64,000 nucleotides of DNA from the human T2T-CHM13v2.0 reference genome, Homo sapiens. This document shows, in pieces, positions 40,331 through 49,799 of this stretch. The notes under the pieces were generated by a model. It had not been told where the DNA came from and ran no database searches. It saw nothing but the letters and a program-made list of their open reading frames with translations. A program made the position numbers and the translations under genes. The DNA lies in the NCBI RefSeq assembly GCF_009914755.1, contig NC_060926.1. One strand, written 5' to 3'. Every line of letters begins with the position of its first letter. Position 1 is the stretch's first letter.

Positions 40331-41861
40331 CATATGTTGATATAGTTGTATGTGTATGTACATATGCGCACTGAGCAGTGTTCCCCCCCAGAAGAATCCG
40401 CATAATGGGCAGGCAGAGGAGGGTCTGGAAAGGGATATGACCTGGAGTGAGAGATCACAGAACACACACACTAGTCCTTAAAGAGGTATTCCTACGAACT
40501 TTCAGAAAGAATTGAGTAGATTCATTTTATAAAGTAAGGATTCTGAATGAGCAAGCAAGGACAAAGAACAACAATAACACAAAAAGTACTTGTGTATACT
40601 AATGTGACTTCATTTACATCCACAAGCCCGAGACACCCTGAGGTATTTGGGTTACAGAAAAGTAAGAGTATTGACAACTGGAGAGGTAATACCACATCTT
40701 CCGTATTACATAGCAACAGAACAAAATCTTGACACCAGGTTTCCACACTCAACATTCAGTGATCCTTACCATACTCCAATTCAACTTTTTCGTAGGCTCA
40801 TGGTTTCCTACCTGGATAATTCTTCATTTTCTTCAACAATGTAAATTCTATCCAACTTCAAAGTTCTGTCAAAGCTCACACTCCAACACATTGGACATCT
40901 ATCTGATGATACGATTTGCCTATAGCTGTCTCAAATCTACGCATATATTTTGGTAGTAAATTTTGCCTTTGTCAACACTTCTAAAGCATGTAAAAAATCA
41001 GAACAATATCACTCATACACAAGAAACATTAAATAAGCGTGCATTGATCACCTTGCATATGTCAGAAACAACTCCAGTACATTACTTACATAGAGAAAGA
41101 AGGAAAAACATGAATTGATTGCCTGACATATAAATTCTAGTACATTACTTGCACATTGAAAGAAATAAACAAGCATTCGTTGAGCACCTAGTATATGCTA
41201 GTGAGTAGCCTTAAAACATAAATCACACATAAGTGGAAAAAATTAGCATGAATTGAGCACCTAGCGTATATTAGGTATTGTTCTAACACAGCATTACTCA
41301 CAGATGGAGCAGGCATTGAGCTCCCATATTTGGCAGGCCCAATTTTTATGACACTACTCCTAAAGAAATGGGCATACATTGACTATATATTATACACCAG
41401 GTGCTACTCTAGATAACATTACTCATACACAGGGGAAGGAAGAAAAGTTCCCTTTATCATCTACTACAAGCTAGGAAATCTTCTAGTACATTATTAAAAC
41501 ATACAGAGGTAAGGTAGTAAACATACCCTGAGTGTCTACTATATGCCAGAGACTATAGTAGTACAAGATTACTCACTAATAGGGAAAGGAAGGGACCCTC
41601 ATGAAGTAATTAGTATTGCCAGGCAATATTCTAGTATAATATTTCTCACATAGAGAAGAAAAGTAGTAAGCAAGCATGCACTGAGCACCAATATATGCTA
41701 GATACGATACTAGTACACAACTACTCATGCATGGGATAAGGAAATGAGTATGCACGAAGCATCTAATATTATGCCAATCACTATTCCAGAAAAAACCTAA
41801 CCACGCATAGAGTAGCAAACAAATATTCTTTAAGTGCCTATTATATTTTTCCCCTTTTTAA

Positions 41862-42177
41862 TTATTTTATTTTATTAATTTATTTTTTGAGACAGCATCT
41901 CACCATGTTGCTCAAGCTGGAGTGCAATGGCATGATCACAGCTTACTGCAACCTTGACCTCCTGGGCTCAAGAGTTCCTCCTGCTTCAGCCTTCTAAGTG
42001 CTGAGACTACAGGCATACACCATGACACTTGGATAATTTTAAAAAAAATTTATTTCATGCAGAGACACGGTCTCACTATATTGCCCAGGCTGGTCTTGAA
42101 CTCCTGGGTTCAAGCAATCCTCCTGCCTTGGCCCCTCAAAGTGTTGGGATTACAGGCATGAGCCACCATGCCTGGCC
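41862..42177 (-). mobile_element. AluJ inserted in the tandem array
   Basis: AluJ-type 'gtctcactatattgcccaggctggtcttgaactcctgggttcaagcaatcctcctgcc'; TSD-like tccccttttta / tccacttttta. Confidence 0.9.
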
Positions 42178-42244
42178 CTCCACTTTTTAAATACAACATT
42201 ATTCACACATAGGGAAGAAATTTTACAAGGATGGCTTGAACACA

Positions 42245-42982
42245 CACGCATGTTCCTTCTCCTATGTAAGAAAAAGTTTGTACTATTACAGTGAAAAATA
42301 CAAGAGCTCAATGCGTATCTGTATTCTTCAATTGACATGTTAGTATTGTTTTACAGAAACTGTAGCTGACATATACTTAATGTATATTCAGTCCCAGTCC
42401 TGATGTGAGAGTAAGATTAATGGAGAATGGTACTTAGCACATACTAGATGCTCATTGCATGCATGTTTTCTTCTCCCCACGTGTGAATATTATACACACA
42501 TTATACAAAAATAATACCTTGCATATTCTAGGAACTTAAGATATGCGCATTTGTTTTTCTTTTCATGGAAGTAACATTATACTAGAATAGTGTTTGGCAT
42601 ATCCTGGACATTCAAAGCCCTTTGTTTTCTTTCTTAATATGTGAGTAATATTGTACTACAACACTGCCTCACACTCAATTCATTATCATTTATTTGCACT
42701 ATGTGTGAGGAAGTTTTTATGAGAACAGTGACTGGAGTTATACAAGTCTATCAATGCATGGCTATGTGATTCCTACTACATAAGAGTAAGGTTGTAATAG
42801 CTTTTACCATGCACTAGGCACTTCACTCACGCTTCACTCTTTCTCTCTCTTATGTTAATAAGGTTGTAATAGAATAATATGGACATACGTTAAGAAATTA
42901 ATGCATGCCTGATTCCCTTCTCTTATGTGTATGTACCAAAATGGTTCCTGAAACATATTCATTGCTTTGTGCATACTTGTTT
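42245..42982 (-). repeat. Inverted block of ~10 array units
   Basis: Reverse-complement motifs: 'actagaatagtgtttggcatat', 'atactagatgctcattgcatgcatgttttcttctcccc', 'tatgtgagtaatattgtacta'. Confidence 0.85.
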
Positions 42983-46259: not shown

Positions 46260-47077
46260 AACAACACACTCTTAAACATCCATTGGGTCAAAAAGGAAAT
46301 CAAAAAGAAATTTAAAAAATATCTTGAGACAAATAAAAATGAAAACACAACATACCAAGCTTATGGGATGCAGCAAAAGCAGTACTAAGAGGGAAGGTTA
46401 TAGTGATAAATGCCTACATTCAAAAAGCAGAGAGATCTCAAATAAATAAACTTTACAGCTCAAGAAACTAGAAAAAGAGAAACAAGCTAAGCCCAAAGTT
46501 AGCAGAAGAAAGAAAATAATAAAGATTATAGCAGAAATAAATAAAGTATAAAAAGAAATAGAGAAAAGACAACACAATGTAGTCGTTTTTTGGAAAAGAT
46601 AAAGAAAATTGACAAACTCTTACCTAGACTGAGAAAAAGGAGAGGACTTAATAAAATCACAAATGAAAGAGATTTACATTACAACAGATGCCTCACATGT
46701 GAAAAGGACCATTATAAAAGGCTATTATGAACAGTTATAAGGGACTATTATGAATAGTTATACATGAATGAAGTGGATAATCTGAAGAAATTGATATGTT
46801 CCTAAAACATTCAACCTATCAAAACTGAATCAAGAATAAATAGAAAGCCTTAAGAGACCAGTAACAAATAAAGAGATTGAAGTAGTAACTGAAAACTATA
46901 ATGGCCGTAATGGTCTTCTATATGGCTGAGTGCCACCAAACATTCAAAGAATACCAATCCTTTTAAACTCTTCCAGGAAAGAGAAAAAGAAGAAATACTT
47001 TCAAACACATTTTATGAGGCCAGCATCACTCTGATACCAACACCAGAAAAGGACACCATAAGAAAGGAAAAAAACCA

Positions 47078-47389
47078 GGCCAGATGTGGTGGCTCACCCC
47101 TGTAATCCCAGCACTTTGGGAAGCTGAGGCAGGAAGATCACTTGAGCCCAGGGGTTCAAGACCAGCCTGGACAGTATAACGAGACCCTGCCTTTACAAAA
47201 AATAAAAATTAAAAAATCAGCTGGGCTATGGTGGCATGTGGCTGTAATTCCAGTTACTCAGGAACCCGAGGTGGGAAGATCGCTTGATTCCAGGAGGTTG
47301 AGGCTGCAGTGAGCTATGATTGGCCACTGCACTCCAGGCTGGGTGGCAAAAAGAGACCCTGTTTCTAAAGAAAACAAAAGAAAACAAAA
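47078..47389 (+). mobile_element. AluJ
   Basis: 'gaagatcacttgagcccagg...gaggctgcagtgagctatgat' are AluJ diagnostics. Confidence 0.9.
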
Positions 47390-49799
47390 CCGAGACCAAT
47401 ACCCCTGATACACACAGATGCAAAAGTCCTCAGTAAAACACTAGGGTGACCAAGTGGAACTTACTGCAACCATAGTTCAACATATACAATATACAATCTA
47501 ATCTCTAAACAATGCACTAAGGGCTTTTGGTATACAAGGCCTTATTTTAGCACAAATTTACCAAAGATGGGGGAAGGAAACATGAAGCACCTAATGTATG
47601 CTAGAAAGTATTCTAGCAAAACATAACTCCAGGGGGAAAAACTAGCATGCATTGAATGCCTATTATATGTCAAATTCTATTTTAGTAAAACATTATTCAT
47701 ACAGAAGAGTAGGAAAACAAGATTGCATTAAGTATCTTGAATATGCCAGGCACTAGACTTGAACAATTACTCATATACAGGTGGAAGAAATGAGCATGCT
47801 TTGATCATCTAGTACAGGGCCCCCCAACTATAGGTATCTAGTTTAACTTTATCCACACATAGTGGAAAGGAACAGGACCGCAATTACTACTTCCTATATG
47901 CCAAGTATTAGTCTAGTTAATATTTGCTATTATCTAGGAAAAGGGAGTGAATATGTATTAAGTGCGGGGTATATTCCAGGTACTTTTCTAGTACATCACT
48001 CATAAGTCAGTAGAATAATAAAAGTATGTGTTAAGTGTCTCATGTTTGTCAGGCAATCTTCTAGTACAATGTACTCACTCATAGGAGAAGAAAACAGGCA
48101 TGCATGGAGCATCTGGTGTTGTCAAGCACTGTTTTAATGCAATATTAGAAAAACAGAAACAATCACTTATTAAATGTCAGCCAGTTTTCTGGTACAACTT
48201 TACTCCTACTTAGACTGAAAAATTAATGCATGCATTTCATGCCTAGGTTAAGCCAGGTGCTATTCTAGTAGGACTTTGCTCACATAAGAAGAGAAGATTA
48301 TGCATTGTACACTTAGAACATGACAGGTGCAACATTACACATTAGGAAGAGGAAGCAAGCATTCATTAATTAATGAACATTGCATATACAAAATAATAAT
48401 TTTGTACAACCTTACTCACCTGTGTGAGAATAGAAGGGGCACATATGGAGTACAAAATATATGCATGGAAATTTTCTTGAGCATTTTAATTCATATCTAA
48501 ATGAAGAAAATGAGCATGCTTGCAGCACGTAATATCATTATACACTACTCACATATCATGTAAAGGAAGAAATTGGACTTAAATAACAAATGTATTGCAG
48601 GGTCTATTTTAGTACAACTTTATTCTCACATTAGGAAAGGAATTGAGCATGCATTAAGTGTTTAACGTATTTCAGGTTTTACTCTATCATAACTTACTCA
48701 CATCTAGGGGAAAGAAGCAAATATACATTGGAAACTTGTATGTAAGATACAATTCTAGAATAACATAAACTACAAGCCTGCATGGAGCAGTGATATGCCA
48801 GGCAATATTCTAGTACATCATTACTGATACATATGTGAAAGGACGGAAGTATGTATTGAACATTCAGTGTATACTAGGTTCTATTCCAGTACAGACTTAT
48901 TGACATACAAGAGAAGAAAAACAGTATTTATGAAGCACCTCGTATATCCCAGGCACTGGTTTACTACAACTTTCCTCACACATGAGGTAAGGAAACAGGG
49001 ATGCATTAAACTTCAAGTACACACCAGGCACTAATCTGCATAACATTAGGGAGCAGGAAGCATGCATACATAGGGAGGAGGAAGCATGCATGCATTAGCC
49101 CCTAATATACAACTGATACTATTCAATTACAACACATCCACACACAAGGGAAGGAAATGAGCCCGAATAGACTACCTAGTATAGGCCAAAGTACAAGCTA
49201 AAATAATCACATATGGGGGACTTAAGTAAGCATGCACTGACAGCCTAGTATGTGTGAGATACTATTCTAGTTCAACCTTACCCACACATAGTGAAAGACA
49301 CAAGACCTTTTTGAGCACCTAATACATAGTAGGCACTATCCTAATACAAGCTTACTCTCATAAAGGTGGGAAATAATCCACTGAACCTCTGTATGTCTGG
49401 TATTATTCTACCATAATATTATTGACAGCAATTGAGCACACAGGGACTATGTAGTCTATCCTAGGTATTATTTTCAGGGACAAGAAATGAGCATGTGCTG
49501 AGAAACTAATGTATGTCAGGTCCTATTCTAGAACATTACTGATCCATAGGTAAAGAAAAGAAGATTGAGTTGAGCAATGAGTATAGGCTGGGCTTTATCT
49601 AATATAGCATTACTCACACTCAGGGATATAAACAAGGATACCTTGAGTGCCTAGTACATTCAGACGCTCTTCTAACATATGATTACTTGCATAAAAGTTA
49701 AAAATAAGCATGTATGTAGTATCTACTATATGCCAGGCACTTCGACCTATTATTCACACATAGGATAAAGAAAGGAGAAATGCGTTGATGAGGGATACT

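What the first reader, a model, noticed from the sequence alone, without database searches (positions are those of the whole stretch)
41000..49790. Ancient ~74-bp tandem array (~75 units) not matching a satellite I recognise
Seen: a motif series (ACATTACTCACACATAGGGGAAGGAAA-CAAGCATGCATTGAGCACCTAGTATATGCCAGGCACTATTCTAGT) recurring every ~73-75 bp over ~5.6 kb of non-TE sequence. Units are very diverged from each other, so homogenisation stopped long ago, yet period and motif order persist. AluJ and an old L1M sit inside it, so it predates them. Inference: either a fossil locus-specific minisatellite or a functional multivalent platform, by analogy with the repeat domains of XIST, NORAD and FIRRE. 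Standard tools could miss it or fragment it into scattered L2/MIR hits.
Basis: partly seen in the sequence, partly recalled or inferred. Interest (0 to 1): 0.8.

Follow-up and report, generated by a model that had tools for sequence, protein, structure and literature searches.

The report
Fossil tandem array from retroposon tail
A real but long-decayed run of about 75 head-to-tail copies of a 74-75-base unit, whose core is the tail end of an ancient L2/MIR retroposon, sits in a human chromosome 2 gene desert and looks like neutral fossil DNA, not a working element.

Summary
Window 41012-49788 holds about 75 copies of a 74-75 bp unit. There are 76 non-overlapping unit-model hits, the median spacing is 74.5 bp, and the array covers 5,583 bp once insertions are removed. 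A model trained on one quarter of the array finds the other three quarters and nothing else in the 64 kb window. One Alu and one L1/Alu composite interrupt the array, and it contains a 0.74 kb inverted block.

The unit is not "non-TE". About 46-50 of its 76 positions match the 3'-terminal module shared by two abundant dispersed families, which I recall as L2 and MIR, read in antisense. The remaining 33 nt aligns weakly to the MIR-type body (p = 0.014) and not to the L2-type body.

Units are 72% identical to their consensus and 57% identical pairwise. Pairwise identity does not change with distance along the array. Changes are mostly transitions, G/C positions have decayed more than A/T positions, and two ancestral CpGs are lost. 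GC content and CpG depletion equal the flanks. No consensus RNA structure, Rfam match, tRNA or annotated gene was found.

No sibling array was found in the genome. A 3-copy, 47-bp tandem repeat of a MIR-like tail on chromosome 5 shows the same kind of origin on a small scale.

Verdict: a neutral, roughly 100 Myr or older fossil minisatellite derived from a transposable element. Function is untested and unsupported.

The parts
41012..41846 (+). Array block 1: 12 units, with the retroposon tail antisense on the + strand. The last unit is cut at about model position 49 by the Alu.
   Evidence: nhmmer unit hits; lags 74, 75 and 149
41847..42189 (-). Alu insertion. Its T-rich end is on the left. 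It is flanked by a direct repeat of about 11 nt (41850-41860 and 42178-42189, 9 of 10 core bases identical). Removing the Alu and one repeat copy restores a full-length unit.
   Evidence: Rfam Metazoa_SRP-like matches at 41887-42033 and 42061-42176 on -, below the gathering score; direct reading
42190..42242 (+). End of the interrupted unit and a partial + unit (model positions 2-39), up to the left inversion junction.
   Evidence: this hit alone is weak, E=2.2; reading
42243..42984 (-). Inverted block of 10 units on the minus strand. It has a head-to-head junction near 42243-42253 and a tail-to-tail junction at 42984.
   Evidence: 10 minus-strand hits at E<=0.1; found also by the cross-validation model (6 minus-strand hits)
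42984..44653 (+). Array block 3: 23 units.
   Evidence: lag-75 autocorrelation 0.363
44654..47511 (+). Composite insertion of old L1-like pieces (44654-45150 and 46262-47070 were tested) with two Alus (45892-46174 and 47079-47367) and further L1-like sequence. It is not part of the array.
   Evidence: Own-genome BLAST gave at least 4641 and at least 9437 first-look candidates, with best non-self identity 76% and 74%; Rfam SRP-like hits; 0 of 5 ORF pieces hit Pfam
47512..49788 (+). Array block 4: 31 units. The array ends inside a unit at about model position 36.
   Evidence: lags 73-75
49037..49095 (+). Small secondary duplication inside one unit: period 24, 2.4 copies, 88% matches.
   Evidence: TRF

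Best explanation
This is the decayed remnant of a single-locus minisatellite or satellite. A segment of about 75 bp was duplicated and then amplified head to tail to at least about 75 copies, presumably by unequal exchange or replication slippage. That segment contained the last ~50 nt of an L2/MIR-type retroposon, more likely a MIR-type SINE tail with internal deletions, lying antisense to the window's + strand.

Amplification and homogenisation then stopped, and every unit has since drifted independently. Later events were an inversion of about 10 units, an Alu insertion, an L1 insertion with nested L1 and Alu pieces, probably a deletion at the right end of that L1, and a 24-bp micro-duplication.

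Shown: the array, its period, its extent, its retroposon-tail core, the lack of any distance effect on unit similarity, and the neutral-looking substitution spectrum. Inferred: the amplification mechanism, an age of the order of 100 Myr or more, and the absence of present function.
For: Array and period.

TE origin:
- A 25-mer from the unit core, with up to 3 mismatches, has 85 genome hits against 0 for the reversed control. 4 are in the array and 81 are dispersed.
- 26 of 26 fetched non-self loci carry exactly one unit-model hit, covering model positions between 21 and 72.
- I built consensi from 30 loci each, found with motifs that lie outside the array-like part (503 and 786 genome hits, 0 in controls). 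The unit aligns to the MIR-type consensus with score 47 (shuffles 21.1+-3.7, max 38). It aligns to the L2-type consensus with score 48 (20.1+-3.7, max 39), with 36 of 46 positions identical and no gap.
- The 33 nt outside the core aligns to the MIR-type body at p=0.014 and not to the L2-type body (p=0.85).

No recent homogenisation: mean pairwise identity is 0.574, 0.573 between neighbours and 0.561-0.583 at separations of 2-60 units.

Neutral-looking decay:
- Transitions 0.18 against transversions 0.11, K2P 0.36-0.39.
- A/T consensus columns are kept at 0.79-0.82 and G/C columns at 0.62-0.65.
- Two columns pairs show the CA/TG/TA mix expected from lost CpGs.
- GC is 0.359 and CpG observed/expected is 0.17, against 0.339-0.373 and 0.18 in the flanks.
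- Dispersed MIR-type and L2-type copies run through the same pipeline give K2P 0.50-0.59, so the array is not older than its source family.

The same kind of origin is seen elsewhere: on chromosome 5 a 47-bp piece of a MIR-like tail is repeated 3.0 times at 95% identity, next to the rest of the element.

TE-derived tandem repeats are a described class, at least 7,276 in the human genome (PMC3389668, abstract and passages).
Against: - The names 'MIR' and 'L2' for the two dispersed families rest on my recall. Three sequence-string searches of the paper library found no paper printing these consensi, and no Dfam or RepeatMasker library was on hand.
- No remainder of a founder element lies at either edge of the array.
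- The MIR-versus-L2 call rests on one alignment with p=0.014.
- One block of the unit, GCATGCA, is co-retained more often than column frequencies predict: 14 units against 7.5+-2.1. The uncorrected p is 0.003 over 57 windows, so it is not significant after correction.
- 32 of 62 unit lengths are still 74-76, against 6/30, 7/22, 8/23 and 10/26 within +-1 for 75-nt windows of dispersed MIR-type copies. This is roughly what the lower divergence predicts, but I did not model it.
- Neutrality was judged within one genome only. Cross-species constraint, transcription and binding were not testable here.
Confidence: 0.8

Rival explanations
1. The array is a working multivalent platform. One version is an RNA: a long non-coding RNA carrying about 75 L2/MIR-tail pieces and many GCAUG sites that binds or sequesters proteins, or is held in the nucleus. 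The other version is DNA: a row of repeated factor-binding sites.
For: The motif is present in many copies. GCATG occurs 34 times in the array on the + strand (6.1 per kb) against 0.67 per kb in the rest of the window. GCATGCA is retained in 14 units against 7.5+-2.1 expected (uncorrected p=0.003). Exonic L2b, MIRb and MIRc pieces raise the nuclear enrichment of lncRNAs in a dose-dependent way (PMC6360812, abstract and passages). The reading of GCAUG as an RBFOX-type site is recalled, not tested.
Against: The hub's table lists no gene or functional element in the window or within 100 kb upstream. RNAalifold finds 0 consensus pairs across 47 units. There are no Rfam matches in the units. The substitution spectrum, GC content and CpG depletion are those of the flanks. 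The co-retention signal does not survive correction for 57 windows. The motif density follows from the unit consensus alone.
Confidence: 0.06
2. The array is the internal tandem-repeat region of a larger, very old mobile element or composite that arrived at this locus as one piece. It did not grow in place.
For: The array ends abruptly inside units at both edges. An old dispersed repeat lies about 115 bp to the right, at 49905-50095, with 149 first-look candidates at 70-84% identity.
Against: No second locus was found. BLAST of 801 and 2,277 bases of the array hits only itself. The 27-mer from the non-core half of the unit hits only the array. Among the 85 places, of which 83 are printed, and the first 100 of 196 places, no other cluster with this period appears. 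These searches would miss copies as decayed as this one if they were short.
Confidence: 0.06
3. The founder was the 3' end of an L2 LINE plus about 25 nt of adjacent host DNA, not a MIR-type SINE tail. The array history is the same and only the source differs.
For: The ungapped 46-nt match to the L2-type consensus (36 of 46 identical, score 48) is as strong as the gapped MIR-type match (score 47). Many dispersed tails share the unit's variant of the terminal stretch (196 hits).
Against: The 33-nt non-core part aligns to the MIR-type body (p=0.014) and not to the L2-type body (p=0.85). The chromosome 5 analogue with the same tail variant sits on a MIR-like body (body identified by my reading).
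Confidence: 0.25
4. The pattern is not a tandem duplication but a pile-up of many independent L2/MIR insertions.
For: None beyond the shared retroposon-tail core.
Against: The spacing is regular (median 74.5, sd 5.5). Every unit carries the same non-core segment, which is found nowhere else in the genome. All units are cut at the same points. Dispersed copies are solitary in 26 of 26 fetched loci.
Confidence: 0.01

Closest known systems
Transposable-element-derived minisatellites and satellites of the human genome (Ahmed and Liang 2012, PMC3389668)
   Same: Head-to-tail repeats whose unit is a piece of a transposable element, expanded locally after a first duplication.
   Different: That catalogue required at least 95% identity among units and at least 40% GC (passage seen). 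This array has 57% pairwise identity and 35.9% GC, so it could not have been listed. It is also far larger (about 75 units) and far older than the typical two-unit cases described there.
47-bp triplication of a MIR-like tail on chromosome 5 (locus L098)
   Same: The same tail module with the same sequence variant, repeated in tandem.
   Different: It has 3.0 copies at 95% identity and a 47-bp period, and it is still attached to the rest of its element. It is young and small, whereas the chromosome 2 array has about 75 copies, a 74-75 bp period, no attached body and heavy decay.
3'-terminal module shared by L2 LINEs and MIR SINEs (family names recalled)
   Same: About 46-50 nt of the unit align to it, with 36 of 46 positions identical to the L2-type consensus built here.
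   Different: Dispersed copies are solitary and continue into an L2 or MIR body. The array units continue instead into a 25-33 nt segment that is unique to this locus.
Repeat domains of XIST, NORAD and FIRRE
   Same: Many copies of one short module in a row.
   Different: Those lie in annotated, expressed RNAs, and their units are kept by selection. Here no gene is annotated, no consensus structure is found, and the decay looks neutral.
Classical human satellites such as alpha, beta, gamma and HSat (recalled)
   Same: Tandem arrays of kilobase scale.
   Different: Those are multi-locus, homogenised and often organised in higher-order repeats. This array is single-locus, is not homogenised and has no higher-order structure. 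It could not be compared with Dfam entries.

Membership tests
Tandem repeat array (minisatellite/satellite) | Head-to-tail copies of one unit at a regular period, beyond chance | tested here: met
   In cross-validation all 36 of 36 hits fall in the array and 20 shuffles give 0.
TE-derived tandem repeat | Unit homologous to a dispersed transposable element | tested here: met
   81 dispersed hits against 0 in the control. 26 of 26 loci carry one hit each. Alignment scores are 47 and 48 against shuffle maxima of 38 and 39.
TE-derived tandem repeat, catalogue of PMC3389668 | At least 95% identity among units and at least 40% GC | tested here: not met
   Pairwise identity is 0.574 and GC is 0.359. 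The criteria were read.
MIR-type SINE tail as source | Homology extends beyond the module shared with L2 into MIR-specific sequence | tested here: inconclusive
   The 33-nt non-core part aligns with score 21 against shuffles of 13.9+-2.5, p=0.014, with long gaps. No MIR body lies at the array edges.
L2 LINE 3' end as source | Homology extends beyond the shared module into L2-specific sequence | tested here: not met
   The non-core part against the L2-type body gives p=0.85. The core itself matches.
Multi-locus satellite family | Arrays of the same unit at other loci | tested here: not met
   BLAST hits self only. The 27-mer has 1 hit, which is self. No other cluster of this period appears among the 83 places printed of the 85, or among the first 100 of 196 places. 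The other 96 places were not listed.
Homogenised satellite with higher-order repeats | Unit similarity depends on distance or shows a multi-unit period | tested here: not met
   Identity is 0.561-0.583 at all separations from 1 to 60.
Known Dfam/Repbase satellite entry | Match to a curated satellite model | not testable with these tools
   No Dfam or RepeatMasker library is available. Paper searches gave nothing on this array.
lncRNA repeat platform (XIST/NORAD/FIRRE-like) | Transcribed as part of a stable RNA | not testable with these tools
   No expression data are on hand. The hub's table lists no gene in the window.
lncRNA repeat platform (XIST/NORAD/FIRRE-like) | Units under constraint or sharing a conserved structure | tested here: not met
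   RNAalifold finds 0 pairs on 47 units. The spectrum looks neutral. Only one uncorrected co-retention signal was found. Cross-species constraint was not testable.

The most novel reading that the evidence does not exclude
The array has been kept, not merely left over. It would be a eutherian-wide row of about 75 L2/MIR-tail modules acting in bulk. It could act as a nuclear-retained RNA with dozens of GCAUG sites, or as a DNA platform in the gene desert. The mildly over-retained GCATGCA block would be its working motif.
Probability: 0.04. Interest if true: 0.6.

Novelty: new member of a known kind. Interest (0 to 1): 0.2.

Why it matters
The main value is for annotation. This is 5.6 kb of "unique-looking" human DNA that TRF does not report. 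My home-made L2/MIR models touch it in only 5 places. It is nevertheless explained entirely by one old duplication process acting on a retroposon tail. Decayed long-period arrays like this one are part of the unannotated fraction of the genome, can cause spurious homology hits (PMC11580682, passages), and are good test cases for tools such as ULTRA. It is also a clean natural example of about 75 copies drifting independently from one ancestor, which could be used to estimate local substitution and indel spectra. If the array turned out to be constrained or transcribed it would be a new kind of retroposon-derived repeat platform, but nothing here points that way.

Tried and rejected
- TRF on 39000-52000 at minimum score 30: no long-period row.
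I used short patterns and BLAST-type DNA queries instead, which are much less sensitive to decayed copies.
- Exact periodic patterns (two or three short motifs at 60-75 bp spacing): they hit the array itself 0-2 times, so they are useless for a genome scan.
- Tool-based naming of the two dispersed families: three paper searches for sequence strings returned only unrelated papers, so 'MIR' and 'L2' remain recalled labels.
- Phrase searches for MIR- or L2-derived tandem arrays returned only microRNA papers. The broader search gave nothing specific.
- tRNA gene cluster idea, prompted by the unit's ~75 nt length: ARAGORN found 0 genes.
- RNA family idea: Rfam hits only in the Alus and the L1-like insert.
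- Conserved RNA fold: 0 pairs.
- Pfam on five open stretches of the L1-like insert: 0 of 5 hit. Its identity as a very abundant old dispersed repeat rests, and the name L1 on my reading.
- First k-mer co-retention test: it flagged two blocks. After conditioning on gap-free rows only GCATGCA remained, so the other signal was an alignment-edge artefact.
- Higher-order repeat or local homogenisation: none.
- Pile-up of independent insertions: rejected.
I could not sort those tails into MIR-attached and L2-attached ones.

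
Full report
**1. Is the array there?**

Yes. TRF at a permissive score reports nothing with a long period in 39000-52000 (27 rows, longest period 24). Plain base autocorrelation does show the period:
- 42960-44650: lag 75 gives 0.363 against a median of 0.272 (sd 0.016).
- 47500-49790: lags 73-75 give 0.307-0.322 against 0.271 (sd 0.012).
- 41000-41840: lags 74, 75 and 149 give 0.332, 0.326 and 0.341 against 0.274 (sd 0.020).
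- 42180-42960: no such peak. This stretch later turned out to be the inverted, more damaged block.
- Controls: two of three stretches have no such lag among their top eight. The third (50600-55000) has weak lags 77 and 152-153.

A unit model grown by iterated nhmmer from one 75-base unit gives 64 hits at E<=0.05 in the whole 64 kb. 63 lie in 41012-49788 and one weak hit lies at 35730-35759.

With a full-length 76-position model, 92 of 104 hits at E<=10 lie inside, and all 12 outside have E>=0.024. There are 76 non-overlapping hits at E<=0.1, 66 on the + strand and 10 on the - strand.

The 62 single-unit spacings have mean 73.2, median 74.5 and sd 5.5, and 32 of them are 74-76. The array covers 5,583 bases without the insertions, which is 74.9 units.

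The model was trained on the region it then scores, so I ran a cross-validation. A model built from 19 units of 47512-49788 only, searched against the window with that block masked, gives 36 hits at E<=0.01. All 36 lie in 40950-44660, none lies elsewhere, and 20 shuffles give 0.

**2. Anatomy**

- 41012-41846: 12 units on +.
- 41847-42189: an Alu on the minus strand. Rfam gives SRP-like matches below the gathering score. It is flanked by a direct repeat of about 11 nt, and removing it restores a complete unit in phase. This Alu therefore landed in an existing array.
- 42190-42242: a partial + unit.
- 42243-42984: 10 units on the minus strand, with a head-to-head junction on the left and a tail-to-tail junction on the right. 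This is an inversion inside the array. The model positions at the two junctions do not match a clean cut-and-flip, so some bases were lost there (inference).
- 42984-44653: 23 units on +.
- 44654-47511: a composite insert.
- 47512-49788: 31 units on +.

Two tested pieces of the composite insert belong to a very abundant dispersed family. They gave at least 4641 and at least 9437 first-look candidates, with best non-self identity 76% and 74%. I read this family as old L1, but Pfam found nothing in five open stretches. Two further Alus sit in the insert.

The array resumes on the right at model position 28, having stopped on the left at position 56. The L1-like sequence next to the right junction is not an L1 3' end by my reading. 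A deletion has probably removed part of the L1 and perhaps some units (inference).

The subfamily names AluJ and L1M could not be checked.

**3. What the unit is**

A 25-mer from the best-kept part of the unit, with up to 3 mismatches, occurs 85 times in the genome and 0 times in the reversed control. 4 hits are in the array and 81 are scattered. All 26 fetched non-self loci carry exactly one unit-model hit, covering model positions between 21 and 72. The core of the unit therefore belongs to a dispersed, solitary repeat.

Reading these loci shows two kinds of continuation, which I recognise from memory as the L2 3' end and the MIR body, both in antisense.

To compare without circularity, I collected 30 loci of each kind with motifs that lie outside the array-like part. 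These motifs are recalled. They gave 503 and 786 genome hits and 0 in the controls. I built a consensus from each set.

- Against the L2-type consensus the unit aligns over 46 ungapped positions with 36 identical. The score is 48, against shuffles of 20.1+-3.7 with a maximum of 39.
- Against the MIR-type consensus it aligns over about 66 positions with gaps. The score is 47, against shuffles of 21.1+-3.7 with a maximum of 38.

This shared stretch is the 3'-terminal module common to both families. That the two families share it is established knowledge which I recall and did not verify in a paper.

The remaining 33 nt of the unit occurs nowhere else in the genome as a 27-mer with up to 3 mismatches (1 hit, which is self). 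It aligns with long gaps to the MIR-type body (score 21, p=0.014) and not to the L2-type body (p=0.85).

I therefore favour a MIR-type tail of about 100 nt shortened by deletions as the founder. An L2 end plus host flank remains a live alternative.

No remainder of a founder element lies at either array edge. My MIR-type and L2-type models hit only 1 and 4 places in the array, against 9 and 5 elsewhere in the window.

**4. How it has evolved**

- Units are 72% identical to their consensus on average (range 0.60-0.89) and 57.4% identical pairwise.
- Pairwise identity is 0.573 for neighbours and 0.561-0.583 at separations of 2 to 60 units. There is no higher-order repeat and no local homogenisation. 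All units descend independently from one ancestor.
- Differences from the consensus are 0.18 transitions and 0.11 transversions per site, giving K2P 0.36-0.39.
- A/T consensus columns are kept at 0.79-0.82 and G/C columns at 0.62-0.65.
- Two column pairs show the CA/TG/TA mixture expected from lost CpGs.
- GC content (0.359) and CpG observed/expected (0.17) equal those of the flanks.
- The dispersed MIR-type and L2-type copies give K2P 0.50-0.59 in the same pipeline. That figure is inflated by subfamily mixing, but it is consistent with the array being younger than its source family and of the same era.
- With a recalled mammalian neutral rate of about 2x10^-9 per site per year, K2P 0.37 means well over 100 Myr. 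The ancestral array need not have been uniform, so this is an order of magnitude only.
- Unit length is fairly well kept: 32 of 62 spacings are within 74-76. For 75-nt windows of dispersed MIR-type copies the counts within +-1 are 6/30, 7/22, 8/23 and 10/26. The difference goes in the direction expected from the lower divergence, and I did not model it further.

**5. Any sign of function?**

- RNAalifold predicts no consensus pair on 47 aligned units.
- Rfam at E<=1 has 17 matches in 40500-50300. All lie in the Alus or the L1-like insert and none in a unit.
- ARAGORN finds no tRNA.
- The hub's annotation lists no gene or functional element in the window.
- GCATG is nine times denser in the array than in the rest of the window (6.1 against 0.67 per kb on +). 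That follows from the unit consensus.
- A column-permutation test of joint retention first flagged two blocks. After conditioning on gap-free rows only GCATGCA remained: 14 units against 7.5+-2.1, p=0.003 among 57 windows, which does not survive correction. I record it as a weak, unexplained signal.
- Exonic L2b, MIRb and MIRc pieces are reported to drive nuclear enrichment of lncRNAs in a dose-dependent way (PMC6360812, abstract and passages). A transcribed version of this array would therefore be interesting, but nothing here shows transcription.
- Cross-species constraint, expression and binding could not be tested with the tools at hand.

**6. One locus or many?**

- BLAST-type searches of 801 and 2,277 array bases against the whole genome return only themselves.
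- None of the places printed for (83 of its 85) forms a second cluster with this period. One inverted pair 1.1 kb apart on contig 17 was not followed.
- A 22-mer from the finding's text, with up to 3 mismatches, has 196 hits and 0 in the control. Of the first 100 listed, 5 are this array and 3 form a cluster on contig 5 at 47-bp spacing. The other 96 were not listed.

The contig 5 locus (L098) is a 47-bp unit repeated 3.0 times at 95% identity. It lies directly next to what I read as the rest of a MIR element. It is an independent, young, small case of the same process.

These searches would miss another array as decayed as this one unless it were of similar size. An array with the same consensus and size should have given about 4 hits.

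**7. Comparison with what is known**

Tandem repeats born from transposable elements are a described class: at least 7,276, or 23% of human mini- and macrosatellites (PMC3389668, abstract). That survey required at least 95% unit identity and at least 40% GC, so this array could not be in it.

The array is not a member of the classical multi-locus, homogenised satellites, because the single-locus and no-homogenisation tests fail. It resembles the repeat domains of XIST, NORAD and FIRRE only in being repetitive.

I could not compare it with Dfam. My paper searches found no description of this array or of L2/MIR-tail arrays. Those searches cover only the held library, and 'MIR' collides with microRNA names.

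**8. Verdict**

The best explanation, at confidence about 0.8, is a neutral fossil of a single-locus tandem array whose unit is an L2/MIR retroposon tail. It was amplified and then abandoned of the order of 100 Myr ago or more, and was later inverted in part and interrupted by Alu and L1. It is a new member of a known kind, and interest is low (0.2). The boldest reading not excluded is a retained multivalent RNA or DNA platform, which I put at about 4%.

Noticed in passing
L098 (G000:C5:177250950-177251450), repeat at locus 170-311: A 47-bp piece of a MIR-like tail is repeated 3.0 times at 95% identity, directly next to the rest of the element. It is a young, small analogue of the chromosome 2 array.
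   Followed up: partly
window 42243-42984: An inversion of about 10 units inside the array. The model positions at the two junctions do not fit a clean cut-and-flip, so bases were lost or the event was more complex.
   Followed up: partly
window 49905-50095: About 115 bp right of the array lies an old dispersed repeat, with 149 first-look candidates at 70-84% identity to other copies. The family was not identified. The 115 bp between it and the array (49789-49904) matches nothing else and holds several CpGs.
   Followed up: partly
window 49037-49095: A 24-bp micro-duplication (2.4 copies, 88% matches) inside one unit. It is younger than the array.
   Followed up: no
window 50600-55000: This control stretch shows weak autocorrelation at lags 77 and 152-153 (0.295-0.298 against a median of 0.279, sd 0.007). 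The unit model has only E>=0.69 hits there (52365-52400).
   Followed up: no
window, array units, model columns 26-32: The palindromic block GCATGCA is intact in 14 units against 7.5+-2.1 expected from column frequencies (uncorrected p=0.003, 57 windows tested).
   Followed up: partly
G000:C17:31361921-31363107: Two hits of the 25-mer core lie on opposite strands 1.1 kb apart with near-identical sequence. They may be an inverted duplication of an L2/MIR tail.
   Followed up: no
window 1606-1862, 3480-3555, 9133-9311, 13593-13672, 34222-34363, 56459-56703: Ordinary solitary MIR-type copies found with the home-made MIR-type model. L2-type tails were found at 35718-35784 and 53774-53839.
   Followed up: no
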